Shown: positions 1 to 59,307 of the stretch, piece by piece | Layout of the letters: each line of letters begins with the position of its first letter | Position numbering within the stretch: position 1 is the first letter of the stretch | NCBI GenBank assembly: GCA_046351675.1 | Contig: JAXLYB010000002.1 | Location: 1 to 64,000 of the forward strand | Direction of reading: 5' to 3' | DNA: 64,000 nucleotides | Source: Myxococcaceae bacterium | GTDB lineage: Bacteria > Myxococcota > Myxococcia > Myxococcales > Myxococcaceae | The notes under the pieces: generated by a model | Database searches by the model: none | The model's input: only the letters and a program-made list of their open reading frames with translations | Told to the model about the DNA's origin: nothing | Made by a program: the position numbers and the translations under genes

Positions 1-25
1 CTCTCCCCCCTGGGGAGAGGGGGTG
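1..25. repeat. REP-like palindromic element (partial, at the window edge)
   Basis: ctctcccccctggggagagggggtg. It supplies the GGAGAG Shine-Dalgarno sequence upstream of the GTG at 25. Confidence 0.5.
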
Positions 26-96: not shown

Positions 97-2292
97 ATGG
101 CACGACGCTGGCTCTGCCTCGAGCGCATGGCCGACCGAGACAGCAGAGAGCGCGACATCCTGGTGGCGTCGAACGAGTACGCCTACGTGCAGGACCTCAC
201 GAAGGGCGACATCGTCCTCTACGTCGGCCCGACGAAGATCTCCCTCAGCAACACCGAGCGCCTCGTCGAGCTGAAGAACGACCGCTTCTCCCCGGTGCGC
301 AACGAAGAGGGCAGCGGCGTGCAGCCCTTCGTGACCGCGTCGAGCACGCAGTACGTGGTGCTCGAGAACCCGGCGAAGGACGTGGGCGTGAAGCCGGTGA
401 AGGGCAACAACAGCGCGGTGGAATTGCTGACCGGCCGCCGCGTGGTGGTGCCTGGACCCGCGACGTTCCCGCTCTGGCCTGGCCAGAAGGCGCGCGTCGT
501 CGCCGGGCACGAGCTCTTCGAAGACCAGTACCTGCGCGTGCGCGTCTACGACTCCGTCGAGGGTGAGAAGGCGAGCATCGGCGCCGAGCGCATCGTGCGC
601 GGGTCTGATCAGAGCTTCTTCATTCCGCGCACCGGCCTCGAGGTCGTGCCCGACGAGAAGGGCGGCTACGTGCGCAACGCCGTCACGCTGCTCGACGGCC
701 AGTACTGCGTGCTGCGCGGGCCGCGCGGGCGCCGTCGCTTCGAACGGGGCCCCGCGGTGGTGTTCCCCGAGGCGTGGGAAGACTTCGTGGTGAAGAACGG
801 CGCGCGCGTCTTCCCCGCGTGGCCGCTCAAGCGCGACCGCGGGCTGCACGTGCGCGTGCTGCAGGGCTTCGAGGCGAAGGAAGGCGACGCGGTGCCGGCG
901 GGCCGGTACGAGGCGGGCCAGGAGCTCTTCGTGCACGCGCGCGAGGGCTTCTTCTTTCCCACCGAGGCGCTCGAGGTTTTGGGGGAAGTGCACGCCGTGC
1001 AGCTCGCGGCGAAGGAAGGCGTCTACCTGCGCGACCTGCAGACGGGCGCGGTGCGCACGGTCGAGGGGCCGGCGGCGCTGTTGCCCGACCCGACGCAGGT
1101 GGAGCGCGTGTCCCGTCCGCTCGACGCCGAGACGGTGAAGCGGTGGCGGCTCGCGAAGAGCGACGGCACGCGCGCGCCGACGGTGACGGTGCCTCCGGGC
1201 GAGGCGGTGCTGGTGACGGGCGTGCTCTCGCGCGAGGTGGTGCGCGGGCCGGCGGTGCGGGTGCTCGCGTTCGACGAGACGCTCGAGACGCTGGAGCTGT
1301 CGACGGGCACTCCGAAGAGCACCGACGCGCTGCTGGCGACGTGCTTCCTGCGCGTCGAGGGCAACAAGGTGAGCGACCTGGTGCAGGTGCGCACGTCGGA
1401 CCACGTCGAGCTCGAGGTGCGGCTGTCGTACCGGGTGAACTTCGTGCACCGCGAGGGGGTGGACGACGCGCGGTGGTTCTCGGTGTCGAACTACGTGGGG
1501 CTCTTGTGCGACCACCTCGGGAGCCTGGTGCGCGCGGCGGTGCGGTCGGTGCCCATCGAGCGGTTCCACGCGGCGAGCGCGGAGATCCTGCGGACCGCGG
1601 TGCTCGGTCAGAAGCCGGGTGATGGGGCGCGGGCGCGGGTGTTCGAAGAGAACGGCATGAGCGTGTACGACGTCGAAGTGCTCGACGTGAGCATCCTCGA
1701 CGAGGCGGTCGAGACGTTGCTCACCGACGCGCAGCGCACGGCCATCACCGCGGAGGTGGCGCGGAAGCGCGAGCAGCTGCGGCTGCAGACCGAGGAGACG
1801 CGCGAGGCGGTGGCGCGGGCCATCTCGGCGGCGCAGCGCGAGACGCTGGTGGTCGAGACGGAGCTCGAGGCGAGCCGGCGGGCGCTGTCGGTGGCGAAGG
1901 TGGAAGCGAAGGCCGAGGCAGCGCGGCTCGAGGCGCTGGGGAAGGCGCGCGCGACGGCCGATGCGCTCGAGCTGCAGTCGCAAGCGGAAGCGGCGGCGGG
2001 CGCGCGGCGCGTGCAGGTCGAGAAGCAGCAGCTCGACGCGCGGGCGGAGGCGTTCAAGGCGCAGATGGCGGCGCTGCACCCTGAGCTGGTGGCGACCTTG
2101 AAGACCCTGGGGGATCAGCAGTTCGCGGCGTCGTTGACGTCGAACTTGTCGCCGCTGGCGATCCTCGGCGGCAAGTCGGTGGCCGAGGTCGCAGAGCGGT
2201 TGTTGGCGGGGCTGCCGGCGAAGTTCCCGTCCCCCCTCTCCCCCGATGGGGAGAGGGTCGGGGTGAGGGGAGACGCTGCAGAGCCCAGGTGA
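97..2292 (+). CDS. Major vault protein (MVP) homolog. The alternative starts are the GTG at 25, which has a Shine-Dalgarno sequence from the upstream REP element, and the ATG at 127.
   Basis: Full-length collinear similarity to eukaryotic MVP. N-terminal MVP-repeat region: YAYVQDLTKGDIVLYVGPTKISL vs human [22 protein letters not shown]. Shoulder domain: FSVSNYVGLLCDHLGSLVRAAVRSVPIERFHAASAEILRTAVLG vs [44 protein letters not shown]. Ala/Glu-rich cap-helix coiled coil. Cap-ring tail: LTSNLSPLAILGGKSVAEV vs LKSTLITDGSTPINLF. The last ~15 codons run into a REP element. Confidence 0.8.
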   Translation: MARRWLCLERMADRDSRERDILVASNEYAYVQDLTKGDIVLYVGPTKISLSNTERLVELKNDRFSPVRNEEGSGVQPFVTASSTQYVVLENPAKDVGVKPVKGNNSAVELLTGRRVVVPGPATFPLWPGQKARVVAGHELFEDQYLRVRVYDSVEGEKASIGAERIVRGSDQSFFIPRTGLEVVPDEKGGYVRNAVTLLDGQYCVLRGPRGRRRFERGPAVVFPEAWEDFVVKNGARVFPAWPLKRDRGLHVRVLQGFEAKEGDAVPAGRYEAGQELFVHAREGFFFPTEALEVLGEVHAVQLAAKEGVYLRDLQTGAVRTVEGPAALLPDPTQVERVSRPLDAETVKRWRLAKSDGTRAPTVTVPPGEAVLVTGVLSREVVRGPAVRVLAFDETLETLELSTGTPKSTDALLATCFLRVEGNKVSDLVQVRTSDHVELEVRLSYRVNFVHREGVDDARWFSVSNYVGLLCDHLGSLVRAAVRSVPIERFHAASAEILRTAVLGQKPGDGARARVFEENGMSVYDVEVLDVSILDEAVETLLTDAQRTAITAEVARKREQLRLQTEETREAVARAISAAQRETLVVETELEASRRALSVAKVEAKAEAARLEALGKARATADALELQSQAEAAAGARRVQVEKQQLDARAEAFKAQMAALHPELVATLKTLGDQQFAASLTSNLSPLAILGGKSVAEVAERLLAGLPAKFPSPLSPDGERVGVRGDAAEPR
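2233..2271. repeat. REP-like palindromic element
   Basis: cccctctcccccgatggggagagggtcggggtgagggga. It overlaps the 3' end of the MVP gene. Confidence 0.7.
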
Positions 2293-2354
2293 GCGCAGAC
2301 GCACCGAGGCTGCTGGAGTCCTGACTTCAGGCGATTGGCGACGTCGCAGGTGAC

Positions 2355-2390
2355 TCCCCTCACCCCACCCTCTCCCCAAGGGGGAGAGGG
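2355..2390. repeat. REP-like palindromic element (inverted relative to 2233)
   Basis: tcccctcaccccaccctctccccaagggggagaggg. Confidence 0.7.
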
Positions 2391-2393
2391 AGA

Positions 2394-2828
2394 TCAGGCC
2401 AACACGGCGCGCGAGGCAGTCGACGCTTCGCGCACCGGCTTCGCGCGCGCCTCGAACAGCGGCGCATACGCCGCCCGGTAGCTCCACGCGAGCCACAGGT
2501 GCGCACCGAGCACGAACACCGGCGCCCCGAGCTGCCCGAACTCGACCAGCGTGTGGAAGCCGATGATGTTCACCGTCACCGGCGCCAGCACCACGAGCGC
2601 GAGCGGCACGAAGCGGTTGGTCAACAGCGCGACGCCCACCGTCAGCTCGACGATCTTCACCAGCGTCATCACGTACGTCGCCGCCAACGCCGCCGACCAC
2701 TGCGCCGCGAGCCCCTCGTGGGGCGGCATCGGCGCGAGGTGCAACAGGCCCATGAGCCCGGCCGAACTCAGCAACAGGCCCAACAACACGCGGGGAACGG
2801 CGACCGGCAGATTGAGCTTCGAAAGCAT
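2394..2828 (-). CDS. DoxX family membrane protein
   Basis: Four hydrophobic helices and a DoxX-like N-terminus (MLSKLNLPVAVPRVLLGLLLSSAGL). Start chosen at the internal Met of ORF 2394..2891. Divergent from a LysR regulator gene. Confidence 0.7.
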   Translation of the reverse strand: MLSKLNLPVAVPRVLLGLLLSSAGLMGLLHLAPMPPHEGLAAQWSAALAATYVMTLVKIVELTVGVALLTNRFVPLALVVLAPVTVNIIGFHTLVEFGQLGAPVFVLGAHLWLAWSYRAAYAPLFEARAKPVREASTASRAVLA

Positions 2829-2925
2829 GTGTCTCTCCAGGTGAAAGGTTCGACCGGGAGATAAGGTCGTTGCTCCAGCAGCACCAGCCATGGCACCGGC
2901 AACTCTTTGTTGCTACTTCAGCAAC

Positions 2926-3873
2926 ATGGACTGGAGCCGCGTCCCCGTCTTCCTGAAGGTCGTCGAGACCGAGAGCATCACCCGCGCCGCCGAAGCGCTG
3001 CGCCTGCCGAAGTCGTCGGTGAGCCGCACCGTCACCGCGCTCGAGCGCGACCTCGAGACCCAGCTGCTCACCCGCACCACCCGCCAGCTCAAGCTCACCG
3101 ACGCCGGCCGCCAGTTCTACGAGCGCGCCAAGGCCGCCCGCGCCGCCCTCGAGGAAGCGACCGCCGAGCTCGCGCACCAGAGCGACGACGCGCAGGGCGT
3201 GGTGCGGGTCACCGTCGCACCGAACGCCTGGCCCCTGAGCATCCTCTTCACGCGCTTCACGAAGGAACACCCGAAGGTGCACGTCGAGGTGCTCGCCACC
3301 AACCGCCACGTCAACCTCGTCGAAGAGGGCATCGACCTCGCCATTCGCGCCGGCTCGATGCCCGACAGCTCGCTCATCGCCCGCAAGATCGCGACCTCGG
3401 AGCTCGGGCTGTTCGCGTCACCCACCTACCTCGCGCGCAAGGGCACGCCGCGCCGCGTGGAGGACTTGAACGAGCACGAGGTGGTGATGTTCCGCGCGCG
3501 GCACGGCGCTGCGCAGCTGCGCCTGAGCGGCCCCGAGGGCGACGTGGTGGTCGCGGTGCAGGGACGCGTCAGCGCGGACGACCTGAGCTTCGTGCGCGCG
3601 TTCATCACCCTCGACGCGGGCATCGGGCTGTTGCCGCTCATCATGTCGGCCGGGCCGCGGACCGACGGGCGGCTGGTGCGCGTGTTGCCCGAGTGGAAGG
3701 TGAAGGGCTCGGGTCTGCACCTCGTGATGCCGGCTGCGCGGTATGTGCCGACGCGGGTCAGGTTGCTCGCTGATTTCATCGCCACGCACTTCGATGGGGC
3801 GCAGCTGTGCCAGGTGGCGAAGGAGCTGTCGGGGCCGTCTCAGGCGAAGAAGAAGGTGAAGCGGACAGCGTGA
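2926..3873 (+). CDS. LysR family transcriptional regulator
   Basis: N-terminal HTH (VFLKVVETESITRAAEALRLPKSSVSRTVTALERDLETQLLTRTTRQLKLTDAGRQFY) followed by a LysR substrate-binding domain. Divergent from its neighbour, the classic LysR arrangement. Confidence 0.85.
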   Translation: MDWSRVPVFLKVVETESITRAAEALRLPKSSVSRTVTALERDLETQLLTRTTRQLKLTDAGRQFYERAKAARAALEEATAELAHQSDDAQGVVRVTVAPNAWPLSILFTRFTKEHPKVHVEVLATNRHVNLVEEGIDLAIRAGSMPDSSLIARKIATSELGLFASPTYLARKGTPRRVEDLNEHEVVMFRARHGAAQLRLSGPEGDVVVAVQGRVSADDLSFVRAFITLDAGIGLLPLIMSAGPRTDGRLVRVLPEWKVKGSGLHLVMPAARYVPTRVRLLADFIATHFDGAQLCQVAKELSGPSQAKKKVKRTA

Positions 3874-3874
3874 C

Positions 3875-3911
3875 TCCCCTCACCCCAACCCTCTCCCCAC
3901 GGGGAGAGGGG
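3875..3911. repeat. REP-like palindromic element
   Basis: tcccctcaccccaaccctctccccacggggagaggg. Confidence 0.7.
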
Positions 3912-3919
3912 GCTATGAA

Positions 3920-4162
3920 GTGCACGTGACCCTCGCCCTGCTCATCGCGCTCGTGACCACCACCGACGCCGGCGTCCCCTCGTGTCGCACGGTCAAAGAC
4001 TGCTGGCTCGACCCGAGCGGCACCGCCATCGCGCGCCCGAAGAAGTTCACCGGCTGGTCGCTGCCCAGGCCCGACTGCGGCAAGAACCTGCTCTGGCTGC
4101 GCTACCAGCTGCAGTGCGTCGACCACGTGTGCACTTCGACGTTCCGCGGCGACGCCTGCTGA
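3920..4162 (+). CDS. Small Cys-rich hypothetical secreted protein (GTG start)
   Basis: 80 aa with a hydrophobic N-terminus (LALLIALVTT) and 6 Cys; GC3-biased. No recognisable family. Confidence 0.3.
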   Translation: MHVTLALLIALVTTTDAGVPSCRTVKDCWLDPSGTAIARPKKFTGWSLPRPDCGKNLLWLRYQLQCVDHVCTSTFRGDAC

Positions 4163-4183
4163 TCAGCGTGGTACAGGCCCCTG

Positions 4184-5510: not shown

Positions 5511-5538
5511 CGACCCACCTCCCCTCGGGGGCAGAGGG
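5511..5538. repeat. REP-like element, degenerate
   Basis: cctcccctcgggggcagaggg. Confidence 0.4.
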
Positions 5539-5566: not shown

Positions 5567-5605
5567 TCCCCTCACCCCGACCCTCTCCCCCTCGGGGGAG
5601 AGGGA
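5567..5605. repeat. REP-like palindromic element
   Basis: cttcccctcaccccgaccctctccccctcgggggagaggg. Confidence 0.7.
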
Positions 5606-14303: not shown

Positions 14304-14876
14304 ATGCGCTTCGCTCTTCGGCACTACCTCGTCGCTGTCGCCATCGCCGCCTTCGCCACCAGCTGTGGCCCGCCGTGGAAGGTCATCAAGGCGTCTGGCC
14401 CGCCGTCGGCGCTCGAGGGGAAGACCGACGTGGGCGTGGCGTTCGACTACTCGGAGCTGGTCGTCGACGGGAAGCCGCTCTCGCAGTGGATGGAGCTGAA
14501 GACCAAGGAAGACCCCAAGTACCCGGAGACCTGGGCGAACCTGATGGGCAAGTTCGAGACGGGCGTGATGAGCACGTTCAGCTCGGGCTTCGCGGGCGCG
14601 CACCTCGCGACCCAGTCGCCGGGCGCGGCGCAGGTCATCGTGTCGGTGAAGACCTTCCAGATGGGCAAGTACATCGTGATTGGGCAGATCCCCACGGTGA
14701 TGAACGTGCACATCCAGGGCAAGGTCGGCGAGGCCGTGACCGATGAGATCATGATCACCCGCAGCTTCCCCGCGTCGGTGGTGCAGCCGTCGGTGTTCAA
14801 CCACGTGCCGCACGTCGGTGAGCAGGTCGGCAACGTCGCCGCGCAGTTCATGAACGCGGCGCAGCCCAAGAAGTAA
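14304..14876 (+). CDS. Hypothetical lipoprotein
   Basis: Lipobox (IAAFATSC). Divergent from the lipase-like gene. Confidence 0.55.
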   Translation: MRFALRHYLVAVAIAAFATSCGPPWKVIKASGPPSALEGKTDVGVAFDYSELVVDGKPLSQWMELKTKEDPKYPETWANLMGKFETGVMSTFSSGFAGAHLATQSPGAAQVIVSVKTFQMGKYIVIGQIPTVMNVHIQGKVGEAVTDEIMITRSFPASVVQPSVFNHVPHVGEQVGNVAAQFMNAAQPKK

Positions 14877-14882
14877 CAAGAC

Positions 14883-14920
14883 TCCCTCTCCTCTTCCGAG
14901 GAGAGGGTCGGGGTGAGGAG
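14883..14920. repeat. REP-like palindromic element
   Basis: ccctctcctcttccgaggagagggtcggggtgaggaga. Confidence 0.7.
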
Positions 14921-14948
14921 AGAACCCTCGCAGCGCAGTCGGTCGTCT

Positions 14949-14986
14949 TCCCCTCACCCCAACCCTCTCCCCCTCGGGGGAGAGGG
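14949..14986. repeat. REP-like palindromic element (inverted partner). It supplies the Shine-Dalgarno sequence for the histidine kinase at 15002.
   Basis: cccctcaccccaaccctctccccctcgggggagaggg. Confidence 0.7.
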
Positions 14987-15001
14987 AGCTCGTTCTCCGA
15001 G

Positions 15002-16603
15002 ATGACCGAGGGCCCTCCTCAACTCCGCCGCAGCGCCGCGCTCACCACGGTGCGCTCGGTGCTCGGCGCGTTGATCCTCGTCGCGCTCTTCGGTTCGATC
15101 GCCGCGGTCGTCAGCTACCGCGCAGACGTCACCGAGGCCCGCCGCCAGGTGCAGGCCCGGGTCGCGCAGCAGGGCCGGCTCTACGCTGACTCCCTCGCGC
15201 TCCACTTCGACGTGCTCGAGGCCGAGCTGCAGCGCCTGGCCGATCGCGGCTTCCAGGCACTCGCCGGCCATGACGAGACCGTGCTCACCACCATTCGCGA
15301 CGACCGCGCGCTCTTCACCGAGGGCGTGGCGTTGCTCGACCTGCACGGCGCGGTGGTGTGGTCCGAGCCCGCGCTCGCGTTCCCCGCCGACGTGCAGCTG
15401 CAGCCCTGGTTCCAGCACGTGCTGGGCCTCGAGAAGTCGACCGTCGACGAGCTGAAGCTGGCCGGCCAGGGCGAAGACAGCTCGCGGCTGGCGGTCGCGT
15501 TGCCCGTGCTCGAAGACGGCAAGCTCGCCGGGCTGCTGGTGGGCGTGGTCGGCTCGAACGACCGCCTCCTCTACGGCGTCGCCGGGCCCGGCGAGCAGCT
15601 GCTGCTCTTGAGCTCGCGCGGTGAGGTCATCTTGCCGGTGCAGGCGCCCGCGTGGTCGAGCAGCACCGAGTTCCAGGTGCGCTTCTCGGCGCTCAAGCAG
15701 CAGCACGACGAGCCGACGATGTGGGACCTCCAGGGCCAGGAGCTCATCGCCGAGGCCTTCGGCGTGAAGGAGACCTCGCTGCAGGTGCTCGCCGTCGAAG
15801 ACTCCGACGTCACCACCGCGCCGATCCGGCGGCGGCTCAACTTCCAGCTCTTCTTCCTGCTCGTGGTGCAGCTCGCCGCGCTCGGCGCGTTCGTGCTCTT
15901 CCTGCGGCGCACGTGGCGCGCCTTCCTCGAAGCCGAGGAGCGCTTCGCCCAGCGCGAGAAGATGGCCGCGCTCGGTGACGCCGCGTCGCTCATCGCGCAC
16001 GAGGTGAAGAACTCGCTCAACGGCTTGAGCGCGGCGACCAGCTTGCTCGAGCGCGGAGGAGATGCCGCGCTGGTCTCGCGCACCGTCACCGGCCAGGTCG
16101 AGCGGCTGGGCCACCTCGCCCGCTCGCTCTTGAGCTTCTCGCGGCCGACCGAGACGCGGCGCGTGAGCGTGCAGCTCGACGCGCTCACCCGCGACACCGT
16201 CAACGCGCTCCACGCGCTGCCCGAGTGGCCGGAGGCGAAGGTCGAGCTCGCGCTCGAGCCCGTGCAGGTGGACAGCGACCCGTTGTTGCTCACCACCGCC
16301 ATCGACAACCTCGTGCGCAACGCCATCGAGGCCGCGGTGCTCGCGAAGGACGTGGGCCAGGTCGCCACGCCGCAGGTGCGCGTCATCGTGAAGCGCGAGG
16401 GAGAGCGCGCCGTGGTGCAGGTCGAAGACAACGCGCGCGCGCCCGCCGAGCTGGAGCAGCGCCTCGGGCAGCCGTTCTTCACCACCAAGCCGCGCGGCAT
16501 CGGGCTCGGGCTGGCGATGACGCAGAAGGCGATGGAAGAGCTGGGCGGCACGCTGCGCTTCGAGCGGCTCGAGGGCGGCAGCCGGTTTCAGCTCACCCTG
16601 TAG
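15002..16603 (+). CDS. Sensor histidine kinase (membrane, HisKA + HATPase_c)
   Basis: Two TM segments flank a periplasmic domain. H-box: FAQREKMAALGDAASLIAHEVKNSLNGL. G-boxes: TTKPRGIGLGLAMTQKAMEELGGTL. A REP element just upstream supplies the Shine-Dalgarno sequence. Confidence 0.85.
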   Translation: MTEGPPQLRRSAALTTVRSVLGALILVALFGSIAAVVSYRADVTEARRQVQARVAQQGRLYADSLALHFDVLEAELQRLADRGFQALAGHDETVLTTIRDDRALFTEGVALLDLHGAVVWSEPALAFPADVQLQPWFQHVLGLEKSTVDELKLAGQGEDSSRLAVALPVLEDGKLAGLLVGVVGSNDRLLYGVAGPGEQLLLLSSRGEVILPVQAPAWSSSTEFQVRFSALKQQHDEPTMWDLQGQELIAEAFGVKETSLQVLAVEDSDVTTAPIRRRLNFQLFFLLVVQLAALGAFVLFLRRTWRAFLEAEERFAQREKMAALGDAASLIAHEVKNSLNGLSAATSLLERGGDAALVSRTVTGQVERLGHLARSLLSFSRPTETRRVSVQLDALTRDTVNALHALPEWPEAKVELALEPVQVDSDPLLLTTAIDNLVRNAIEAAVLAKDVGQVATPQVRVIVKREGERAVVQVEDNARAPAELEQRLGQPFFTTKPRGIGLGLAMTQKAMEELGGTLRFERLEGGSRFQLTL

Positions 16604-16613
16604 ACCCTCAGCT

Positions 16614-16652
16614 CCCTCTCCCCCTGAAGGGGAGAGGGTTGGGGTGAGGGGA
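16614..16652. repeat. REP-like palindromic element
   Basis: ccctctcccctgaaggggagagggttggggtgagggga. It lies immediately after the histidine kinase stop. Confidence 0.7.
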
Positions 16653-16658
16653 GACGCT

Positions 16659-17201
16659 TCAGAACGTCCCCGTCAGCGCAATCGCCGGCGCATTCCCCCT
16701 CATCATCATCGGCATCACCGTCACGCGCGGCTTCTCGGCATCGACCGTCGTGTTGCGCTGCAGCCACTGCGCGGGCTTCGACGCGCCGACGATCGCCGTC
16801 ACCACACCACCCACCTGCACCGCGGTCTCGCTGACCATCAACATCGTGAACCAGAACGCCGCGAAGCCGCGCCAGAACTGCTGGTCGCCCAGGAAGCTCG
16901 ACCATTCCGACGGCTGGCTCGCCCAGTTCCACGCGTTCACCATCGCGATGAGCGGACCCGCCACCGGCACCAGCAGCGTCAGGTCCTGCGTCGGCAGCGC
17001 CCAGAGCGCGGTGGTGGCGTAACCCGCGGCGAAGGCACCGAGGCCGGCGCCGATGACCGCCCAGCGCGGCTGCTCGACGAGGTGGTACCCCTCGGGGACG
17101 AAGCCGTCGCGCGAGACCTTGAGGCGCTCGGGCACGGGGGCTTCGACCATCGGCGGAGGGGTCTGCGCAACGGAGAGCGTGACGAGGAGCGAGAGGAGCA
17201 T
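16659..17201 (-). CDS. Hypothetical membrane/secreted protein
   Basis: Signal-like N-terminus (MLLSLLVTLSVAQ) and several hydrophobic helices. Start taken at the internal Met of ORF 16659..17363. Confidence 0.45.
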   Translation of the reverse strand: MLLSLLVTLSVAQTPPPMVEAPVPERLKVSRDGFVPEGYHLVEQPRWAVIGAGLGAFAAGYATTALWALPTQDLTLLVPVAGPLIAMVNAWNWASQPSEWSSFLGDQQFWRGFAAFWFTMLMVSETAVQVGGVVTAIVGASKPAQWLQRNTTVDAEKPRVTVMPMMMRGNAPAIALTGTF

Positions 17202-17368
17202 GCCGCGAAGGTGTGCAAGCCGGTCGCCTTCGGGGATTAGCGGGGTTGCGCGCCGAGACTGCGCAGTCGGCTGCACACCGTGTGCGTCCCGTTTCAGGGC
17301 TTTCGAGGGCTTTCCGAGGGCCTCGTTCGAGGCGGATCCACCTCGCGCCCGGCAGCAACCCACCGGCC

Positions 17369-18190
17369 ATGAAGCTGACCCTCTTCGCAGCGTGGGCGGG
17401 GCTGACGTTCGGCGCGCCCTTCGCGGTGCTGGCGCTGCACGGTGCGGGGCTGCCGCTCTCCGCCGGCGTGCTCGCGATGACCGCCCTCGCCACGCTCGCC
17501 GTCACCGTCGCCGAACACGTCGCGCCGTTCGAGCCGAAGTGGAGCGTGGACCACGGAGACGCCCGCGTCGACCGGCTCCACGCGCTCGGTTCGATGGCCG
17601 TCGTCGCGGCGCTCGTGCCCCTCGTCGCGCGCGTGCCGAGCCTCGGGTGGTGGCCGACGCGCTGGCCCTTCGTCGCGCAGCTCGCCGCCGCGCTGCTGCT
17701 CGCCGAGCTCGGCGCGTACTGGGCGCACCGGCTGATGCACACCACGCAGCTGCTCTGGCGCGTCCACCTCGTGCACCACAGCGCGCGGCGGCTCCATGCG
17801 CTCAACGCGTCCCGCAACCACCCGCTCGACACCGCGCTCGGGTTCCTCGCCGCCGCCGTGCCGTTGGTCGCGCTGGGAGCGCCGGCGGAGGTCCTCGCCG
17901 CGACCGGCGCGCTCGCCGCGGTGCACCTCCAGTTCCAGCACCTCAACGCCACGCTCGAGCTGGGGCCGCTCAACCTGCTCTTCGCTGGCCCGGAGCCGCA
18001 CCGCTGGCACCACTCGCGCGTCGAGGCCGAGGCGAACGGCAACTACGGCCACGTGCTCAGCCTGTGGGACGGCGTGTTCGGCACGCGCGTCGCGCCTCCG
18101 GGCCGGCCGCCGGTCGACGTGGGGGTCTTCTCTCCTCGTGACGAGGTGCCCGAGCAGCTCGGCGTGCAGCTCCTGGTGCCCTTCCGATGA
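17369..18190 (+). CDS. Fatty acid hydroxylase / sterol desaturase superfamily membrane enzyme
   Basis: Three His boxes (HRLMH, HLVHH, HRWHH) and multiple TM helices. Confidence 0.75.
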   Translation: MKLTLFAAWAGLTFGAPFAVLALHGAGLPLSAGVLAMTALATLAVTVAEHVAPFEPKWSVDHGDARVDRLHALGSMAVVAALVPLVARVPSLGWWPTRWPFVAQLAAALLLAELGAYWAHRLMHTTQLLWRVHLVHHSARRLHALNASRNHPLDTALGFLAAAVPLVALGAPAEVLAATGALAAVHLQFQHLNATLELGPLNLLFAGPEPHRWHHSRVEAEANGNYGHVLSLWDGVFGTRVAPPGRPPVDVGVFSPRDEVPEQLGVQLLVPFR

Positions 18191-18990
18191 AGCACGTCAC
18201 CTTCGACGATGGCCGGCAGATGTGGGCGCTCAACGCGGTCGACGCGGCGATGCTCCACCAGCAGATCTACCGCGCGCAGACGTACGCGCGGCCGGGGTGG
18301 ACGCTGCGGGAAGGCGCGTGCGTGTTCGACGTCGGCGCGAACATCGGCCTGTGCTCGCGCTGGCTCACCGAGCAGCACCGCGGCTTGCGGCTGTTTGCGT
18401 TCGAGCCCGCGCCGGAGACCTTCGCCGCGCTCGAGCGTAACGCGGCCGAGTTCACCGGCGCCGAGGTGACGCTCTTGCGCTGCGCGCTGGGCGAGCGACG
18501 CGGTGAGGCGATGCTCACCTTCGACCGCCTCGCGAGTTCGATGGCGTCGCTGCGGGAAGAGGGGCCGGCGGTCGATGCACGCGCGTGGCAGAGCGCCGTC
18601 GCGGCGGACCTGAAGCTGCCCCGCGTCGCGGTCGCGGCCGTCGAGCTCGCGCGCCGCGTGTTGCGCCGCCGTGTGCCGTGCGAGGTGCGCACGCTGTCTG
18701 ACGTCATCGCCGAGTACGGCGTCGAGCGCATCGACCTGCTCAAGCTCGACGTCGAGGGCGTGGAGCTGCAGGTGCTGCGCGGCGTGAGCGACGCCGACTG
18801 GGCGCGCATCGAGCAGGTGGTGGTGGAGACGGACGACGTGCCAGCAGTGTGCGCGTTGCTCGAGCGGCAGGGCTTCGCGGTCGACGTCACTCAAGACGCG
18901 GGAGCCACGTACCGGCTGCTCGGGCTCTACAACGTGTTCGCACGCCGCCCTCCTCTCCCTCTCCTCCCGAGGAGGAGAGGGTCGGGGTGA
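18187..18990 (+). CDS. FkbM family SAM-dependent methyltransferase
   Basis: Motif FDVGANIGLCS ... LLKLDVEGVELQVL is typical of the FkbM family. Its start overlaps the upstream stop (ATGA). The C-terminal ~14 aa are encoded by a REP element. Confidence 0.75.
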   Translation: MKHVTFDDGRQMWALNAVDAAMLHQQIYRAQTYARPGWTLREGACVFDVGANIGLCSRWLTEQHRGLRLFAFEPAPETFAALERNAAEFTGAEVTLLRCALGERRGEAMLTFDRLASSMASLREEGPAVDARAWQSAVAADLKLPRVAVAAVELARRVLRRRVPCEVRTLSDVIAEYGVERIDLLKLDVEGVELQVLRGVSDADWARIEQVVVETDDVPAVCALLERQGFAVDVTQDAGATYRLLGLYNVFARRPPLPLLPRRRGSG

Positions 18991-18995
18991 GGAGA
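18956..18995. repeat. REP-like palindromic element. It overlaps the 3' end of the FkbM gene.
   Basis: ccctctcctcccgaggaggagagggtcggggtgaggaga. Confidence 0.7.
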
Positions 18996-19006
18996 AACCT
19001 CGAGCT

Positions 19007-19045
19007 GCGGTGCGGATAACGCTGCCACAGCCCATGATCCGCACC
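19007..19045 (+). other. Conserved stem-loop motif, copy 1 (GGTGCGGA-N21-TCCGCACC)
   Basis: gcggtgcggataacgctgccacagcccatgatccgcacc, about 17 nt after the FkbM stop and between two REP elements. Near-identical to the element at 49932-49970 on the opposite strand. Confidence 0.5.
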
Positions 19046-19110
19046 GGCGAGGGGCTGCGTGGGTCGTGCAGTCACGAGACCCGTCACACCGTCGAACGGC
19101 ACTCGGCTTC

Positions 19111-19149
19111 TCTCCTCACCCCAACCCTCTCCTCCTCGGGAGGAGAGGG
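19111..19149. repeat. REP-like palindromic element (inverted partner). It contains the Shine-Dalgarno sequence and precedes the ATG of the sigma-54 activator.
   Basis: tctcctcaccccaaccctctcctcctcgggaggagaggg. Confidence 0.7.
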
Positions 19150-19151
19150 AG

Positions 19152-20522
<1,371 letters not shown>

Positions 20523-20597
20523 AAAGCCCTTTCACCGCGCACCGAAAAACTCTTTCACCACACCCCTGTCGCACCCAGTGGATCAGCGGGTCTGCGC

Positions 20598-38820: not shown

Positions 38821-38859
38821 CCCTCTCCTCCCGAGGAGGAGAGGGTTGGGGTGAGGAGA
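38821..38859. repeat. REP-like palindromic element
   Basis: ccctctcctcccgaggaggagagggttggggtgaggaga. Confidence 0.7.
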
Positions 38860-38928: not shown

Positions 38929-38964
38929 TCCTCACCCCGACCCTCTCCTCTGAAGAGGAGAGGG
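38929..38964. repeat. REP-like palindromic element (inverted partner)
   Basis: tcctcaccccgaccctctcctctgaagaggagaggg. Confidence 0.7.
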
Positions 38965-38974
38965 AGAGGCGTGA

Positions 38975-40726
38975 TCAGAGTCCTTCGTCGGGCCCCTCGG
39001 TCTTCTTCTTTTCTTCCTTCTTCTCAGGCGACTTCGGCGGCCCCGCATGCGGCGGCCCGAAGTCGACATTCACCACGTCATCAAGCTGCACGAACCGCCG
39101 CGCCAACTCCGGCACCAGCGCATCATCCAATTCGAGCAACACCTTCATCGTCGCCCCCGCCCGCTGCTTGAGCGACTCATCCTTCAGCTCGACCGCCACC
39201 GCATACAGCGCGACCGCCACCTCGGGATCGAAGGGGTTCACCGCGTTCGCATCGAGGTAGCTCTTCTTCGCCGCGTCCCACTTCTTCGCGCGCAGATAGA
39301 TGCGCCCCAAATGCACGCTCGACGGCGCCGACCCGGGGTGCACCTGCAAGCTCGCCTCGAGCACCTTCGCCGCCTGGTCGAACTCCTTCAGCTCGAGCAG
39401 CGCGAGCGCGTACTTGTTCGACACCGACTCGTACTTGTCGCCCACCTGCTTCCACGCGCGCGCATACGCCTCGACCGCGGCCTTCGCGTGCTTGTGCTCG
39501 CGGAACAATTCCCCCAGGTGCGCGTTGCGGCGCGCGTCGACCTCGGTCACCTCGACGAAGTCACCGAAGCTGACCTCGCGCTCCTTCTTCTTCTTCGGCC
39601 CCGCCTCGGTGAGCTCCTTCTTCTCGAACGAGCTGGGCGGAATCAGGTCCTTCGGGAACGGCTGCTTCTTCAAGAACGCCATCCAGCTCGACTCGAACTG
39701 GGGCCACTTGCGCTTCATCACCTGCTCGACCGCCGCCTTGTCGCTCACGCCCTTCGCCATCGCGTCCAACAACCGCTCGAGCGCCTGCGGGCCACCTTCC
39801 TGGTCGACGAGCTTGAGCGCGAAGTACACCTCGGCGAACGCGGTTGCGGCGTCTTCGGCCGTCGGCAACAACGCCATCGAGGGGTGCATCTTCTCGAAGG
39901 GCACGAGCGTGTTCTTCTTCACGCGCATGCCGAGCAGCGCGAGCGTCGGCGGCGTCATCGCCCCGCCCGCCGGCCCACGCCACCGCGACTCGAGGTACTT
40001 CGCGAGGCCCTCGTGCATCCAGATGGGCACGGTGTTGCGGCTCTTGCGGCTGACGACGAGGTGCACGTACTCGTGCGCCATCGTGTCGAGCCAGTCGTAG
40101 CCCATCACCAGCGCGCGCGGCGTCGTCACCATCAGCTTGTTGAACTTGCAGATGGCGATGGTGCCGGTGGTCTTGATGGCTTCCTTGGTGAGCGTCGACA
40201 CCTTCGCGAGCTCAGCGGCGGACGTGACGAGCTCGACGCGCACCTTGCCGGGCGGCGCGTAGCCGAGGTCCTGCACCAGCGCGGCCCGCTGCGCCTCGAG
40301 CGCGTCGAGCGCCCACGGCACGAGCACCGCGTCGCGCCCCTTCGGGTAGCGAATGATGAAGTGCTCGCTCTCGGCCTTCTCGTAGCCGTTGACGATGGCG
40401 CCGGTGTCCTTCGCGAGGCGCACCCAGCTGCCGGGCTTGTCGGTGAGGCCGGCCTTGGTGAGCAGCGCCAGCGCGTCGTCGTAGCGGCCCTCTTCGAAGG
40501 CGATGCGGCCCTGGTAGTAGGCGAGCGGCTCGACGTCGGCGGGGGCGATCTTCTCGAGCTCAGCCAGCTCGCTCTTCGCGGCCTCGAGGTCCCAGTCGTC
40601 GAGGTACTGGTCGAGGTTCTGGATGCGGGCGCGCGCTTCGCCTTTGACCGACGAGAGATCAGGCTCCTCCTGCGCGAACGCCGGGAGGCTGATCAACGCG
40701 CTGATCAACACCAACCGGCACGTCAC
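38975..40726 (-). CDS. Secreted TPR-repeat protein with HExxH zincin-like motif
   Basis: GTG start with GGAG Shine-Dalgarno sequence. Signal peptide VTCRLVLISALISLPAFA. HEYVH ... MHEGLAKYLE. Multiple TPR-like helices. Lys/Glu-rich C-terminal tail. Translationally coupled (GTGA) to the upstream gene. Confidence 0.65.
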   Translation of the reverse strand: MTCRLVLISALISLPAFAQEEPDLSSVKGEARARIQNLDQYLDDWDLEAAKSELAELEKIAPADVEPLAYYQGRIAFEEGRYDDALALLTKAGLTDKPGSWVRLAKDTGAIVNGYEKAESEHFIIRYPKGRDAVLVPWALDALEAQRAALVQDLGYAPPGKVRVELVTSAAELAKVSTLTKEAIKTTGTIAICKFNKLMVTTPRALVMGYDWLDTMAHEYVHLVVSRKSRNTVPIWMHEGLAKYLESRWRGPAGGAMTPPTLALLGMRVKKNTLVPFEKMHPSMALLPTAEDAATAFAEVYFALKLVDQEGGPQALERLLDAMAKGVSDKAAVEQVMKRKWPQFESSWMAFLKKQPFPKDLIPPSSFEKKELTEAGPKKKKEREVSFGDFVEVTEVDARRNAHLGELFREHKHAKAAVEAYARAWKQVGDKYESVSNKYALALLELKEFDQAAKVLEASLQVHPGSAPSSVHLGRIYLRAKKWDAAKKSYLDANAVNPFDPEVAVALYAVAVELKDESLKQRAGATMKVLLELDDALVPELARRFVQLDDVVNVDFGPPHAGPPKSPEKKEEKKKTEGPDEGL

Positions 40727-43956: not shown

Positions 43957-45126
43957 ATGGGAACCCCCCTTCCCCCCCGCGCGCAGGCCCTGTTCGACTG
44001 GCTGGTCGACGGAGCGCCGGGCGCGACGACCCCGATGGCAGTGGTGCAGCGCATCGCCAATGAGCTGCAGGCGCTCGAGGTGCACATCGAGCGCATCGCG
44101 GCCTTCGTGCGCACGCTGCACCCGCATGTCGTGGGGCGCCGGTTCCTCTGGGAAGCGTCGACCGACAAGGTCGAGGTGGGCGAGCTCTCGTGGGACCGCC
44201 TGAGCTCGGTCGGGTTTCAAGAGAGCCCCATCGCGCACGTGATGAACACCGGGGAGATCGTGCGCGGCCAGCTGCGGCCCGACGCGAAGCTGGCGTTCAA
44301 GGACCTCGTGGAGATGCGGGACAAGGGCTTCACCGAGCTCTCGGTCTTCCCGCTCAAGTTCATGGGCGGCACGACGCACGCCATCAGCTTCGCCACGCGC
44401 GCGCCGGGCGGGTTCGCCGACTCGCAGTTCGAGATGATTCGCGAGCTGATGCGCCCGCTGAGCCGCGTCGCCGAGACGCTCGCGCTGATGCGCACCGCGG
44501 TGAACCTGCTCAACGCGTACGTCGGCAACGATGCGGGCGAGCGCATCTTGCAGGGGCAGATTCGGCGCGGTGACACGCAGCTGATCAACTGCGTCATCTG
44601 GTTCTCTGACTTGCGCGGCTTCACGTCGCTGTCGAGCGAGCGCGCGCCTCAAGACATCATCTCGGTGCTCAACCAGTTCTTCGAGTGCCAGGTGCCGGCC
44701 ATCGAGAAGGAAGGCGGCCAGGTGCTGAAGTTCATCGGCGATGGGCTGCTCGCCATCTTCCCGGTGAAGGCCGACGCGCGGGCGAGCGGTGATGCGGCGG
44801 TGCGGGCGTCACGCGGGGCGTTCGAGGCGCTGCAGAAGCTGAACGCGACGCGCGCCGAGCGGGGAGAGAGTGCGCTCGGGTTTGGCGTCGGGTTGCACCT
44901 CGGTGAAGTCGCGTTCGGGAACATCGGCGGGTCGAACCGGCTCGACTTCACGGCGATTGGTCCGGCGGTGAATCTGGCGAGCCGCATCGAGAGCATGACC
45001 GGGAAGCTCGGCAAGCAGGTGCTGGTGAGCGGTGAGCTGGCGAAGCACTTGTCGGTCGCGACGCGGTCGGTGGGTGATTTCGAGCTGAAGGGCGTACCCG
45101 GTCGGGTCGAGCTCTTCGAGCTCTGA
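43957..45126 (+). CDS. Class III adenylate/guanylate cyclase with N-terminal GAF-like sensor
   Basis: CHD motifs: FSDLRGFTSL, KFIGDGLLAIF, GLHLGEVAFGNIGG. Divergent from the coiled-coil gene. Confidence 0.75.
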   Translation: MGTPLPPRAQALFDWLVDGAPGATTPMAVVQRIANELQALEVHIERIAAFVRTLHPHVVGRRFLWEASTDKVEVGELSWDRLSSVGFQESPIAHVMNTGEIVRGQLRPDAKLAFKDLVEMRDKGFTELSVFPLKFMGGTTHAISFATRAPGGFADSQFEMIRELMRPLSRVAETLALMRTAVNLLNAYVGNDAGERILQGQIRRGDTQLINCVIWFSDLRGFTSLSSERAPQDIISVLNQFFECQVPAIEKEGGQVLKFIGDGLLAIFPVKADARASGDAAVRASRGAFEALQKLNATRAERGESALGFGVGLHLGEVAFGNIGGSNRLDFTAIGPAVNLASRIESMTGKLGKQVLVSGELAKHLSVATRSVGDFELKGVPGRVELFEL

Positions 45127-45137: not shown

Positions 45138-45174
45138 CCCTCTCCTCTTCAGAGGAGAGGGTTGGGGTGAGGAG
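45138..45174. repeat. REP-like palindromic element
   Basis: ccctctcctcttcagaggagagggttggggtgaggag. Confidence 0.7.
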
Positions 45175-45201: not shown

Positions 45202-45240
45202 TCTCCTCACCCCGACCCTCTCCTCCTCGGGAGGAGAGGG
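45202..45240. repeat. REP-like palindromic element (inverted partner)
   Basis: tctcctcaccccgaccctctcctcctcgggaggagaggg. Confidence 0.7.
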
Positions 45241-45258
45241 AGATGATTACATCGGATC

Positions 45259-49778: not shown

Positions 49779-49931
49779 GCGCTGCGTGCGTGTGACGTTT
49801 CCAGCGCGCGCCGCCGGAAGCGTCGAGGCGCGGCAGGCCTCAGGGGACGCGGGGGTGACGGGTCTCGGCCGTGCACCGCGCGAGCAGCCCCTCGACTGCG
49901 AGCGAAGTTCACGCACGGTGGGGCCGACGCG

Positions 49932-49970
49932 GGTGCGGAAAATGGGCTGTGGCAGCGTTATCCGCACCGC
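49932..49970 (-). other. Conserved stem-loop motif, copy 2 (reverse orientation)
   Basis: The plus strand reads ggtgcggaaaatgggctgtggcagcgttatccgcaccgc. This is the reverse complement of copy 1 with 36 of 39 positions identical. It lies about 180 nt downstream of minus-strand gene 50150..50887. Confidence 0.5.
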
Positions 49971-50149
49971 GGTCGAGGTCGCTGGGCAGAGAAGTTGTTC
50001 TCCCAGAGCATTTTCTCTACCCGGTGACCCGAACGACGACTGAGTGAACGAGTCACGGCCCGCAGCGAGGGGCACCTGCGCTGTTCGGCACGGCCTCAGG
50101 CCACCAGCACGCCCGCCACCCTCGAGGCTGATCAGCGTCCCGCTCGACC

Positions 50150-59012: not shown

Positions 59013-59014
59013 GC

Positions 59015-59054
59015 CCCCTCTCCCCCCGAGGGGGAGAGGGTTGGGGTGAGGGGA
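59015..59054. repeat. REP-like palindromic element
   Basis: ccctctccccccgagggggagagggttggggtgagggga. It follows directly after the recF stop. Confidence 0.7.
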
Positions 59055-59132
59055 AGATCCAGCACGGCCGGCGGAGCGATGAATGCAGGTGGCAGTCGCT
59101 GATCAGCGTGGTCGCCAAGCCCGCTCCCTGCC

Positions 59133-59168
59133 CCCTCTCCCCCTGGGGAGAGGGTTGGGGTGAGGGGA
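59133..59168. repeat. REP-like palindromic element (same orientation as the one at 59015)
   Basis: ccctctccccctggggagagggttggggtgagggga. Confidence 0.7.
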
Positions 59169-59271
59169 AAGCCCAGCACGGCGCGCGCGGAGACCTCGGG
59201 ACCAACGATGTGCTGCTGACCGTTCGCCGCCGGCCTCACCTGTTACGCATGTTTCCGGCTGTACACGCGTC

Positions 59272-59307
59272 TCCCCTCACCCCGACCCTCTCCCCGCGGG
59301 GAGAGGG
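59272..59307. repeat. REP-like palindromic element (inverted). It overlaps the 3' end of gene 59277..60302.
   Basis: tcccctcaccccgaccctctccccgcggggagaggg. Confidence 0.7.

What the first reader, a model, noticed from the sequence alone, without database searches (positions are those of the whole stretch)
2226..2292. REP elements captured into coding 3' ends and supplying translation start signals
Three genes end inside REP copies, so the elements encode their C-terminal tails. These are the MVP gene (tail ...SPLSPDGERVGVRGDAAEPR), the FkbM methyltransferase gene at 18956-18990 (tail ...LPLLPRRRGSG) and hypothetical gene 59277-59312. In the opposite direction, the GGAGAGGG arm of the element provides the Shine-Dalgarno sequence and precedes the start codon of the sigma-54 activator (ATG 19152 inside the element), the histidine kinase (15002) and a candidate GTG start at 25. 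Repeat insertion has therefore remodelled both ends of genes here.
Basis: seen in the sequence. Interest (0 to 1): 0.5.

Follow-up and report, generated by a model that had tools for sequence, protein, structure and literature searches.

The report
Triplex-type repeats remodel gene ends
A known, very widespread short DNA repeat (the BoxC / triplex-motif family first described in E. coli) is packed between genes in this myxobacterial genome. In three genes it has replaced the last few codons, but it is not convincingly used as a translation start signal.

Summary
The repeat is real: 17 copies in 64 kb, with 15 tail matches against 0.01 expected. It is not a new REP family. It is the BoxC / PIT / TMECO intrastrand-triplex motif (Holder et al. 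2015, PMC4666352). The copy tested is 87-95% identical to E. coli copies, and the motif occurs in many phyla.

The C-terminal half of the finding is confirmed. The MVP, FkbM and U0228_06430 genes run into a repeat copy. FkbM and U0228_06430 stop at the repeat's own TGA; MVP reads through the repeat and stops 20 nt later. Every ortholog examined lacks both the tail and the repeat, and homology to the ortholog DNA that could be aligned (MVP, FkbM) stops 3-10 nt before the repeat. Two of the three junctions are also synteny breakpoints.

The start-signal half is mostly not supported:
- GTG 25 is refuted. All 70 orthologs whose N-termini were read carry the MA[DE]R N-terminus that corresponds to ATG 127.
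- For the sigma-54 activator, NCBI annotates GTG 19170 and JGI/ENA call ATG 19152. The same repeat-borne ATG at 45243 is not a gene start.
- The purine arm is sequestered in a 10-11 bp G:C hairpin.
- The arm ends 13 nt before the histidine kinase ATG.
- 12 of the 17 starts checked in this window have no Shine-Dalgarno-like motif within 22 nt.

Repeat overlap with coding 3' ends is already documented for other small repeats, for example the Coxiella MITEs. Interest is modest.

The parts
1..22 (-). TM/BoxC copy, truncated by the window edge (only the hairpin is visible)
   Evidence: It lies 104 nt upstream of the true MVP start, ATG 127.
2234..2269 (+). TM/BoxC copy (C:G.G type, loop 2 = TCG), lying wholly inside the 3' end of the MVP gene
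   Evidence: It fits the strict TMECO pattern. The MVP ORF reads through it to stop 2290-2292.
2224..2292 (+). Lineage-specific MVP tail (AKFPSPLSPDGERVGVRGDAAEPR*). Homology to orthologs ends at about 2223.
2354..2390 (-). TM/BoxC copy with a 1-nt deletion in loop 2, partner of 2234-2269 in an inverted doublet. It lies 3 nt from the stop (2394-2396) of the convergent DoxX gene.
3877..3910 (-). TM/BoxC copy. It lies 3 nt after the LysR stop (3871-3873) and 9 or 15 nt before GTG 3920 or 3926 of small protein U0228_06230.
5569..5604 (-). TM/BoxC copy upstream of the flavin reductase gene. ENA's gene call (ATG 5543) reads through it. NCBI starts at GTG 5702, downstream of it.
14884..14919 (+). 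TM/BoxC copy (T:A.A variant), 7 nt after stop 14874-14876. It is the left half of a doublet.
14951..14986 (-). TM/BoxC copy, right half of a doublet. Its purine arm ends at 14988, 13 nt before the kinase ATG 15002.
16614..16650 (+). Single TM/BoxC copy that fills the 55-nt gap between the kinase stop (16603) and the stop (16659) of a convergent gene
18949..19157 (.). Inverted doublet (56-nt arms, 89% complementary, 97-nt spacer) between the FkbM and sigma-54 activator genes. It contains the last 14 FkbM codons and ATG 19152.
   Evidence: DNA fold -86 kcal/mol, z = -9.7.
18957..18993 (+). TM/BoxC copy (T:A.A variant). Its third-strand TGA (18988-18990) is the FkbM stop codon.
19113..19149 (-). 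TM/BoxC copy (T:A.A variant). Its purine arm GGAGGAGAGGGAG is followed by ATG 19152.
38821..38857 (+). TM/BoxC copy, left half of a doublet, 90 nt after the Ser/Thr kinase stop
38929..38964 (-). TM/BoxC copy, right half of a doublet, 10 nt from the stop (38975-38977) of a minus-strand gene
45138..45173 (+). TM/BoxC copy, 11 nt after stop 45124-45126
45204..45240 (-). TM/BoxC copy followed by the same GAGATGA as at 19150. This ATG 45243 is not the gene start; U0228_06375 starts at 45259.
59016..59052 (+). TM/BoxC copy, 3 nt after the recF-like stop (59010-59012)
59133..59166 (+). TM/BoxC copy, left half of a doublet
59274..59307 (-). TM/BoxC copy. Its third-strand TGA (59277-59279 on the minus strand) is the stop of U0228_06430.
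59013..59276 (.). 264-nt cluster of three copies that forms the whole intergenic region. In the ortholog locus L005 the two convergent genes overlap by 9 nt with no spacer.

Best explanation
The elements belong to the BoxC / PIT / TMECO family of intrastrand-triplex repeats. Each copy has a pyrimidine arm (CCCTCTCCYC), a loop, a purine arm (GRGGAGAGGG), a 3-nt loop, and a mirror purine strand (GGGTGAGGRG). The mirror strand can lie on the hairpin as G.G:C, A.A:T and T.A:T triples.

In this Myxococcaceae MAG the family is very dense, about one copy per 3.8 kb. Copies occur singly or as inverted doublets, and they sit almost exclusively at gene boundaries.

Where an insertion, or a rearrangement that ended at a repeat, removed a gene's last codons and stop codon, the ribosome reads into the repeat. 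In one of the three forward frames it meets the repeat's own TGA and gives ...P-L-P-x-x-G-R-G-S-G*. In the other two frames the repeat is open, so translation runs on to the next chance stop (the MVP case).

The tails are inferred to be tolerated by-products at C-termini that are already variable among orthologs. They are not inferred to be selected additions.

The purine arm looks like a Shine-Dalgarno sequence and pulls ab initio gene callers towards repeat-adjacent starts. It is buried in a 10-11 bp G:C stem, so it is more likely to hinder initiation than to promote it.

Shown here: family identity, the coding overlap, absence from orthologs, and the synteny breaks. Inferred: the direction and mechanism of insertion, neutrality of the tails, and occlusion of the SD-like arm in vivo.
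For: Identity:
- The published motif is CCCTCNCCC-N3-6-GGGNGAGGG-N3-GGGNGAGGG, with triplex formation shown in vitro (PMC4666352).
- Six copies fit that pattern strictly. Fifteen fit a generalised form in which triplet 9 is either C:G.G (8 copies) or T:A.A (7 copies), with no mixed cases.
- A 45-nt copy matches 5416 of 5426 E. coli genomes at 87-95% identity, at a median of 18 places per genome.
- All five intact doublets pair a TT copy with a TC copy in loop 2; the sixth doublet pairs TC with a copy that has a 1-nt loop-2 deletion. This mirrors the rule in E. coli doublets, which always combine a type A with a type B copy.

Location:
- None of the 17 copies lies in a gene interior. Three are overlapped by CDS 3' ends, and seven more lie 3-11 nt from a stop codon.

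Lineage-specific tails:
- MVP. FkbM. U0228_06430.
- The FkbM junction is identical in two independent metagenome assemblies, L002 and L003, so it is not a MAG assembly artefact.

Rearrangement:
- Window 2224 to about 4170 (doublet, DoxX, LysR, a repeat copy, small protein) is extra DNA compared with two relatives. In those relatives MVP is followed directly by the K-rich and AurF-like genes.
- The genes downstream of FkbM differ in L004.
- This fits the reported association of the motif with rearranged loci.

Starts.
Against: - No expression, proteomic or ribosome data exist, so translation of the tails is inferred from the absence of any earlier in-frame stop.
- Only one to three relatives per junction were available, at 65-86% protein identity. 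The order of events (simple insertion, or recombination between repeats) is therefore not resolved.
- No target-site duplication or transposase was identified, so 'insertion' describes the outcome and not a demonstrated mechanism.
- The T:A.A / C:G.G covariation rests on two haplotypes here plus one independent case (L052). It could reflect two master copies and not selection for a triplex.
- A hairpin-occluded SD can still work if transcription starts inside the repeat or if the stem is melted, so use of ATG 19152 is not excluded.
Confidence: 0.8

Rival explanations
1. The repeats have been co-opted: they provide functional C-terminal peptides, and their GGAGAGGG arm serves as the working Shine-Dalgarno sequence (and in one case the ATG) for downstream genes.
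For: - GGAGG lies 8 nt upstream of ATG 19152, and JGI/ENA gene callers choose that start.
- GTG 3920 of a small secreted-looking protein lies 7 nt after a purine arm and is chosen by JGI/ENA.
- Three annotated proteins carry repeat-coded tails.
Against: - GTG 25 is refuted.
- NCBI picks GTG 19170 and GTG 3926.
- The same repeat-borne ATG at 45243 is unused.
- Spacings are 13 nt (kinase) and 17 nt (45259).
- The arm is paired in a stable hairpin.
- 12 of the 17 starts checked have no SD-like motif within 22 nt.
- The tails replace ortholog regions that are already unconserved.
Confidence: 0.1
2. The repeats are functional 3'-end modules: a transcript-stabilising or terminating hairpin, or a translation attenuator that stalls terminating ribosomes. 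This would resemble what has been reported for E. coli REP sequences within about 15 nt of a stop codon (Liang, Rudd and Deutscher 2015, cited from memory, not retrieved). On this view their tight contact with stop codons is selected, and the coding overlap is a side effect.
For: - Ten of 17 copies overlap or lie within 11 nt of a stop codon, most in the forward orientation relative to that gene.
- Hairpins are very stable, -27 to -38 kcal/mol for 50-76 nt contexts.
- Whole intergenic regions consist of the repeats.
Against: - For the E. coli members, earlier work found no promoter or terminator activity and no effect on RNA polymerase, as summarised in PMC4666352.
- Only one terminator-like site was found in 14700-19400, no more than in shuffles.
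- Intergenic regions here are short, so closeness to stops may simply follow from where insertions are tolerated.
Confidence: 0.2
3. Artefact. The tails come from MAG misassembly or sequencing error at repeats, and the real genes stop before the repeat.
For: The source is a metagenome-assembled genome, and short repeats are classic misassembly points.
Against: - The FkbM-doublet-sigma54 junction is identical (99.8-100%) in two independent assemblies from other samples.
- Separate ENA/JGI contigs carry the small-protein and flavin-reductase loci with their repeats.
- The repeats are much shorter than reads.
Confidence: 0.03

Closest known systems
BoxC / PIT element / TMECO intrastrand triplex motif of E. 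coli and other bacteria (Holder et al. 2015, PMC4666352; earlier work by Bergler and by Hoyne/Maher as cited there)
   Same: - Same three-block architecture and nearly the same sequence, 87-95% identity to E. coli copies.
- Canonical purine-motif triples at every position.
- Multi-copy.
- Inverted doublets that combine two loop-2 types.
- Association with rearranged loci.
   Different: - Much higher density here: 17 copies in 64 kb, against 23 per E. coli K-12 genome.
- Stems of 10-11 triplets instead of 9.
- A T:A.A-compensated subfamily.
- In E. coli K-12 the motif is reported as 'always intergenic'. Here 3 of 17 copies are partly coding.
REP / REPIN elements mobilised by RAYT transposases (Pseudomonas, E. 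coli)
   Same: Short GC-rich palindromes, present as singlets and inverted doublets, that fill intergenic regions next to gene 3' ends.
   Different: No RAYT gene or conserved GTAG-type head was identified. The extra mirror purine strand is not a REP feature. The sequence family is different.
Small repeats that overlap coding 3' ends: Coxiella burnetii QMITE1/QMITE2 (PMC5896051). Rickettsia palindromic elements and Neisseria Correia elements are cited from memory.
   Same: Repeat insertion overlaps or extends the C-termini of functional genes. For example, in the Dugway strain the last 33 aa of EnhC are supplied by QMITE2, and there are 1-50 bp C-terminal overlaps in ubiB, pntAA, mutT, recN and ruvB.
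   Different: The repeat family and host are unrelated. Those elements have terminal inverted repeats and direct repeats typical of MITEs.

Membership tests
BoxC / PIT / TMECO triplex motif | Sequence pattern CCCTCNCCC-N3-6-GGGNGAGGG-N3-GGGNGAGGG (Holder et al. 2015) | tested here: met
   Six copies match strictly. Fifteen match when stems longer than 9 and a Y:R.R change at triplet 9 are allowed. The pattern is quoted.
BoxC / PIT / TMECO triplex motif | The third block mirrors the purine arm, so every position can form a purine-motif triple (G.G:C, A.A:T, T.A:T) | tested here: met
   Read directly from the aligned copies. Ten of 10 triplets are canonical. Triplet 9 is C:G.G in 8 copies and T:A.A in 7, with no mixed cases.
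BoxC / PIT / TMECO triplex motif | Sequence similarity to the characterised E. coli copies | tested here: met
   87-95% identity over 80-100% of a 45-nt copy, in 5416 of 5426 E. coli genomes, at a median of 18 places per genome. Compare with Table 1 of the paper.
BoxC / PIT / TMECO triplex motif | Inverted doublets that combine two different loop-2 types | tested here: met
   All five intact doublets pair a TT copy with a TC copy in loop 2. In the sixth, the partner of the TC copy has a 1-nt loop-2 deletion. In E. coli a type A copy always pairs with a type B copy.
BoxC / PIT / TMECO triplex motif | Strictly intergenic location (as reported for E. coli K-12) | tested here: not met
   Three of 17 copies are overlapped by CDS 3' ends. 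None lies in a gene interior. This is a property reported for one strain and not a defining structural feature.
BoxC / PIT / TMECO triplex motif | Actual triplex formation by the single strand (CD, NMR, footprinting) | not testable with these tools
   ViennaRNA models only the hairpin.
REP / REPIN-RAYT system | Cognate RAYT (Y1 transposase) and a conserved tetranucleotide head next to the hairpin | not tested
   The window's ORFs were not scanned systematically for Y1 transposases, and the gene could lie anywhere in the genome. No GTAG-type head appears in the aligned flanks.
MITE | Terminal inverted repeats plus a target-site duplication | tested here: inconclusive
   Doublets have long inverted arms. 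No direct repeat was evident at the one clean insertion site when compared with the empty site in L005.
Functional Shine-Dalgarno site | Anti-SD complementarity 5-10 nt upstream of the start codon actually used | tested here: inconclusive
   Met for ATG 19152 and GTG 3920, but both starts are disputed: NCBI uses 19170 and 3926. Not met for 15002 (13 nt), 45259 (17 nt), 127 or 5702.
Functional Shine-Dalgarno site | Accessibility of the SD in the mRNA | tested here: not met
   At 19152, P(unpaired) of positions -15..-4 is 0.18, against 0.42 +/- 0.18 for 26 other starts. The MFE is -29.9 against -20.4 +/- 4.3 kcal/mol. The arm is fully paired in the MFE folds.

The most novel reading that the evidence does not exclude
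In this myxobacterial lineage the BoxC/triplex motif is an actively expanding element that targets gene boundaries. It drives local rearrangements and repeatedly rewrites protein C-termini. The T:A.A-compensated subfamily would show that the three-stranded fold itself, and not only the hairpin, is under selection, which would point to a DNA-level function or recognition mechanism conserved across bacterial phyla.
Probability: 0.2. Interest if true: 0.55.

Novelty: new member of a known kind. Interest (0 to 1): 0.3.

Why it matters
- For annotation: these repeats add spurious-looking Pro/Gly/Arg-rich tails to real proteins. They also bias ab initio callers towards repeat-adjacent starts. Three genes in this window have conflicting public starts for exactly this reason.
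- For biology: this is a clean, ortholog-controlled example of the E. coli BoxC/triplex motif remodelling coding ends and marking synteny breaks. The motif's function is still unknown, and the host here is a distant phylum with a far higher copy density.
- The density and the compensated T:A.A variant make this genome a useful place to ask whether the triplex fold is selected.
- The general phenomenon, a small repeat overlapping gene 3' ends, is not new.

Tried and rejected
- Rfam, whole window at gathering threshold: no family. A permissive search over the doublet gave only sub-threshold plant miRNA-precursor hits, which reflect a long hairpin.
- Look-up of the window's own MVP protein for upstream context: not on record.
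- Idea that the variable MVP tails in relatives (GWEGVRS..., GDGVRG...) are decayed repeats: rejected. No motif within 3 mismatches was found in L126 or L127.
- G-quadruplex reading (GGGG-AGA-GGG-TT-GGGG-TGA-GGGG): considered. The T:A.A subfamily breaks two of the four G-tracts while keeping all triples, so the triplex reading fits better. Not tested further.
- Sigma-54 promoter in the doublet spacer: inspected by eye, no good TGGCAC-N5-TTGC match.
- Target-site duplication at the recF-like/U0228_06430 insertion: none evident.
- Retrieval of Liang, Rudd and Deutscher 2015 on REPs near stop codons: not in the library, so it is cited from memory only.
- A hand-typed sigma-54 sequence was wrong. 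The look-up was repeated correctly.
- Phage carriage: many IMG/VR contigs carry the motif, but only 4 of 50,697 curated phage records do. No case can be made for phage-borne spread.
Full report
**What is in the sequence.** The window has 70.7% G+C. It comes from a MAG annotated as 'Myxococcaceae bacterium', with locus tags U0228_06215 to U0228_06430. A short repeat is scattered through it. GGAGAGGGTYGGGGTGAGG with up to 2 mismatches occurs 15 times against 0.01 expected. A looser hairpin search adds a copy with a 1-nt deletion (2354-2390) and a copy cut by the window edge (1-22), giving 17 copies. In a common orientation each copy reads CCCTCTCCYC - loop of 3-6 nt - GRGGAGAGGG - TYG - GGGTGAGGRG. 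Twelve copies form six convergent doublets (a + copy followed by a - copy). The clearest doublet has 56-nt arms at 18949-19004 and 19102-19157, 89% complementary. It folds as one long hairpin (DNA, -86 kcal/mol, z = -9.7).

**What the element is.** The third block is the mirror image of the purine arm. Folded back on the hairpin it gives G.G:C, A.A:T and T.A:T at every one of 10 positions, which is a purine-motif intrastrand triplex. A literature search on the two sequence words led directly to Holder et al. 2015 (PMC4666352). That paper describes this motif under the earlier names BoxC and PIT element and calls it TMECO. Its pattern is CCCTCNCCC-N3-6-GGGNGAGGG-N3-GGGNGAGGG. The paper shows in vitro triplex formation, 23 copies in E. 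coli K-12, 3610 copies in 262 proteobacterial genomes, inverted doublets that always combine two loop types, and association with rearranged loci.
- Six window copies fit the strict pattern. Fifteen fit once longer stems and a change at triplet 9 are allowed.
- A 45-nt window copy matches 5416 of 5426 complete E. coli genomes at 87-95% identity, at a median of 18 places per genome, under no annotated feature.
Hits came from Alpha-, Beta- and Gammaproteobacteria, Cyanobacteria, Planctomycetota, Verrucomicrobiota, Dehalococcoidia, Acidobacteriota, Bacteroidota, Actinomycetota MAGs, Omnitrophota and Archangium. Nearly all had the complementary CCCTCTCC arm upstream.
- Rfam has no family for it.

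Two local peculiarities stand out.
- Triplet 9 is C:G.G in eight copies and T:A.A in seven, and is never mixed. Among 101 usable copies from other genomes, 92 are C:G.G and one (L052, Verrucomicrobia) is independently T:A.A.
- In all five intact doublets one copy has TT and the other TC in loop 2. The sixth doublet pairs a TC copy with one that has a 1-nt loop-2 deletion. This echoes the E. coli rule of type A plus type B.

**The C-terminal claim.**
- MVP (Pfam MVP_shoulder). In the 70 orthologs whose termini were read, those complete at the C-terminus are conserved up to ...RLLAGLP. They then carry unrelated tails of about 0-25 residues. Only the window protein has AKFPSPLSPDGERVGVRGDAAEPR. 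The closest relatives (86%, 85% and 84% identity; L001, L126, L127) have no motif copy at the gene end. Protein-level homology to L001 stops at window 2223, three bases before the repeat-coded stretch.
- FkbM methyltransferase. Orthologs end at ...YARR plus 0 to about 12 residues. The window protein continues PPLPLLPRRRGSG and stops at the TGA inside GGGGTGAGG. DNA homology to the 75% ortholog ends at 18947, two bases before the doublet arm, and that contig carries no repeat. Two independent assemblies from other samples (L002, L003) carry the identical junction, so it is not an assembly artefact.
- ORF 59277-60341(-). It has coding-type composition (GC1/2/3 = 0.77/0.56/0.86) and is annotated by NCBI as a 341-aa protein. 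Its 65% ortholog ends ...LARWQPRSG*. In the ortholog locus this gene and the convergent recF-like gene overlap by 9 nt. In the window they are separated by 264 nt made of three repeat copies. The recF-like gene keeps a tail of the same length, and the other gene reads ...WRDAPPLPAGRGSG* into the repeat's TGA.

The element has a TGA in one of its three forward frames and is open in the other two. This explains the two short GRGSG* tails and the longer MVP read-through.

**Context of the junctions.** None of the 17 copies is inside a gene. Three are overlapped by 3' ends. Seven more lie 3-11 nt from a stop codon: DoxX, LysR, the gene ending at 14876, the kinase, the minus-strand gene ending at 38975, the gene ending at 45126, and the recF-like gene. 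Several intergenic regions consist of little else.

Two of the three remodelled ends are also synteny breaks.
- Window 2224 to about 4170 (doublet, DoxX, LysR, another repeat copy, a small Cys-rich protein) is absent between MVP and the K-rich and AurF-like genes in both L001 and L126.
- The genes downstream of FkbM differ in L004.

This agrees with the published link between the motif and rearranged loci. It also means that 'a repeat inserted into the gene end' is too simple for MVP and FkbM. The recF-like junction, by contrast, looks like a plain insertion.

**The start-signal claim.**
- GTG 25 is refuted. All 70 orthologs whose N-termini were read carry the MA[DE]R N-terminus, three of them with a short extra leader. 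NCBI annotates 721 aa, which corresponds to ATG 127. The intermediate ATG 97 is out of frame in L001.
- Sigma-54 activator. ATG 19152 lies inside the doublet arm, with GGAGG 8 nt upstream, and JGI/ENA call it (456 aa). NCBI annotates GTG 19170 (450 aa). The two closest representatives start MSISILLVDDD and MTLRVLLVDDD. Their leader is five residues shorter than with ATG 19152 and one residue longer than with GTG 19170. The identical repeat end ...GGGAGGAGAGGGAGATGA occurs at 45243. There the ATG opens an Arg-rich off-frame ORF, and the real gene (U0228_06375) starts at 45259. So an ATG after the arm is a property of the repeat and not evidence that it is used as a start.
- Histidine kinase. 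ATG 15002 is the first start in the ORF and is the NCBI start, but the arm ends 13 nt upstream.
- Accessibility. In every fold the purine arm is fully paired with the pyrimidine arm. At 19152 the SD window has mean P(unpaired) of 0.18, against 0.42 +/- 0.18 for 26 other starts. The MFE is -29.9 against -20.4 +/- 4.3 kcal/mol.
- 12 of the 17 starts checked have no SD-like motif within 22 nt.

The practical effect seen here is disagreement between annotation pipelines at three repeat-adjacent genes: 19152 against 19170, 3920 against 3926, and 5543 against 5702. ENA's 5543 call translates a whole repeat copy.

**Mechanism and rivals.** The best-supported account is passive. A dense, boundary-hugging repeat family, and rearrangements that end at its copies, occasionally remove a stop codon. 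The ORF then runs into the repeat, and the change is tolerated because those C-termini are already unconstrained. Co-option as SD, start codon or functional tail is not supported. A role as a 3'-end module (mRNA stabiliser, or a staller of terminating ribosomes, by analogy with E. coli REPs near stop codons, cited from memory) is compatible with the tight spacing to stops. It is untested here, and earlier work on the E. coli elements found no terminator activity. How the family spreads remains unknown. No transposase or target-site duplication was seen.

**Novelty and score.** The family is known, and overlap of small repeats with coding 3' ends is documented elsewhere. An example is Coxiella QMITE1/2, including a 33-aa C-terminal extension of EnhC (PMC5896051). 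The following points were not found in the papers consulted:
- occurrence at very high density in a myxobacterial lineage;
- partly coding copies, in contrast to 'always intergenic' in E. coli K-12;
- the T:A.A-compensated subfamily;
- ortholog-controlled junctions.

I rate this as a new member of a known kind, with interest 0.3.

Noticed in passing
window, all 15 full copies (e.g. 14884-14919, 18957-18993 against 2234-2269, 59133-59166): There is a three-way covariation at triplet 9 of the motif. The pyrimidine arm, purine arm and third strand are C/G/G in 8 copies and T/A/A in 7, and are never mixed. One independent T/A/A copy occurs in a Verrucomicrobia MAG (L052). This fits preservation of the triplex, but with only two haplotypes it could also reflect two master copies.
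   Followed up: partly
Genome-contig loci L006-L125; viral-contig loci L128-L207 and beyond: The exact core GGAGAGGG-NNN-GGGTGAGG, usually with the matching CCCTCTCC arm, occurs in genomes from many phyla, well beyond the Proteobacteria and Cyanobacteria highlighted in the 2015 paper. It also occurs in at least 120 IMG/VR contigs. Only 4 of 50,697 curated phage records carry it.
   Followed up: partly
window 18997-19049 (+) and 49928-49979 (-): A second small repeat, 53 nt and 91% identical between its two copies, contains the hairpin GGTGCGGA...TCCGCACC. One copy sits in the spacer of the FkbM/sigma-54 doublet and the other in an apparently non-coding stretch near 49.9 kb. Its nature is unknown, and there is no Rfam match above threshold.
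   Followed up: partly
window 2224-4170: A block of about 2 kb (DoxX-family gene on the minus strand, a LysR regulator, and a small Cys-rich secreted-looking protein U0228_06230) is inserted between MVP and the K-rich gene relative to two Archangium-like relatives. A motif doublet lies at its left edge and a single copy lies inside it. The small protein has a homolog elsewhere in L001, at 20385-20567.
   Followed up: partly
window 5518-5537: A degenerate hairpin, CCTCCCCTCGGGGGCAGAGG, lies just upstream of copy 5569-5604. It may be a decayed motif copy.
   Followed up: no
window 3920/3926, 5543/5702, 19152/19170: Public annotation pipelines disagree on the start codon of three genes. In each case the ab initio call (JGI/ENA) is the start nearest to, or upstream of, a motif copy, and the NCBI call lies further downstream.
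   Followed up: yes
L001 13800-13835: The closest relative (Archangium sp. MAG, 9.4-Mb contig) has only one motif-like copy in 22 kb. It lies inside a called 240-aa gene with no Pfam hit, which may therefore be a spurious ORF.
   Followed up: no
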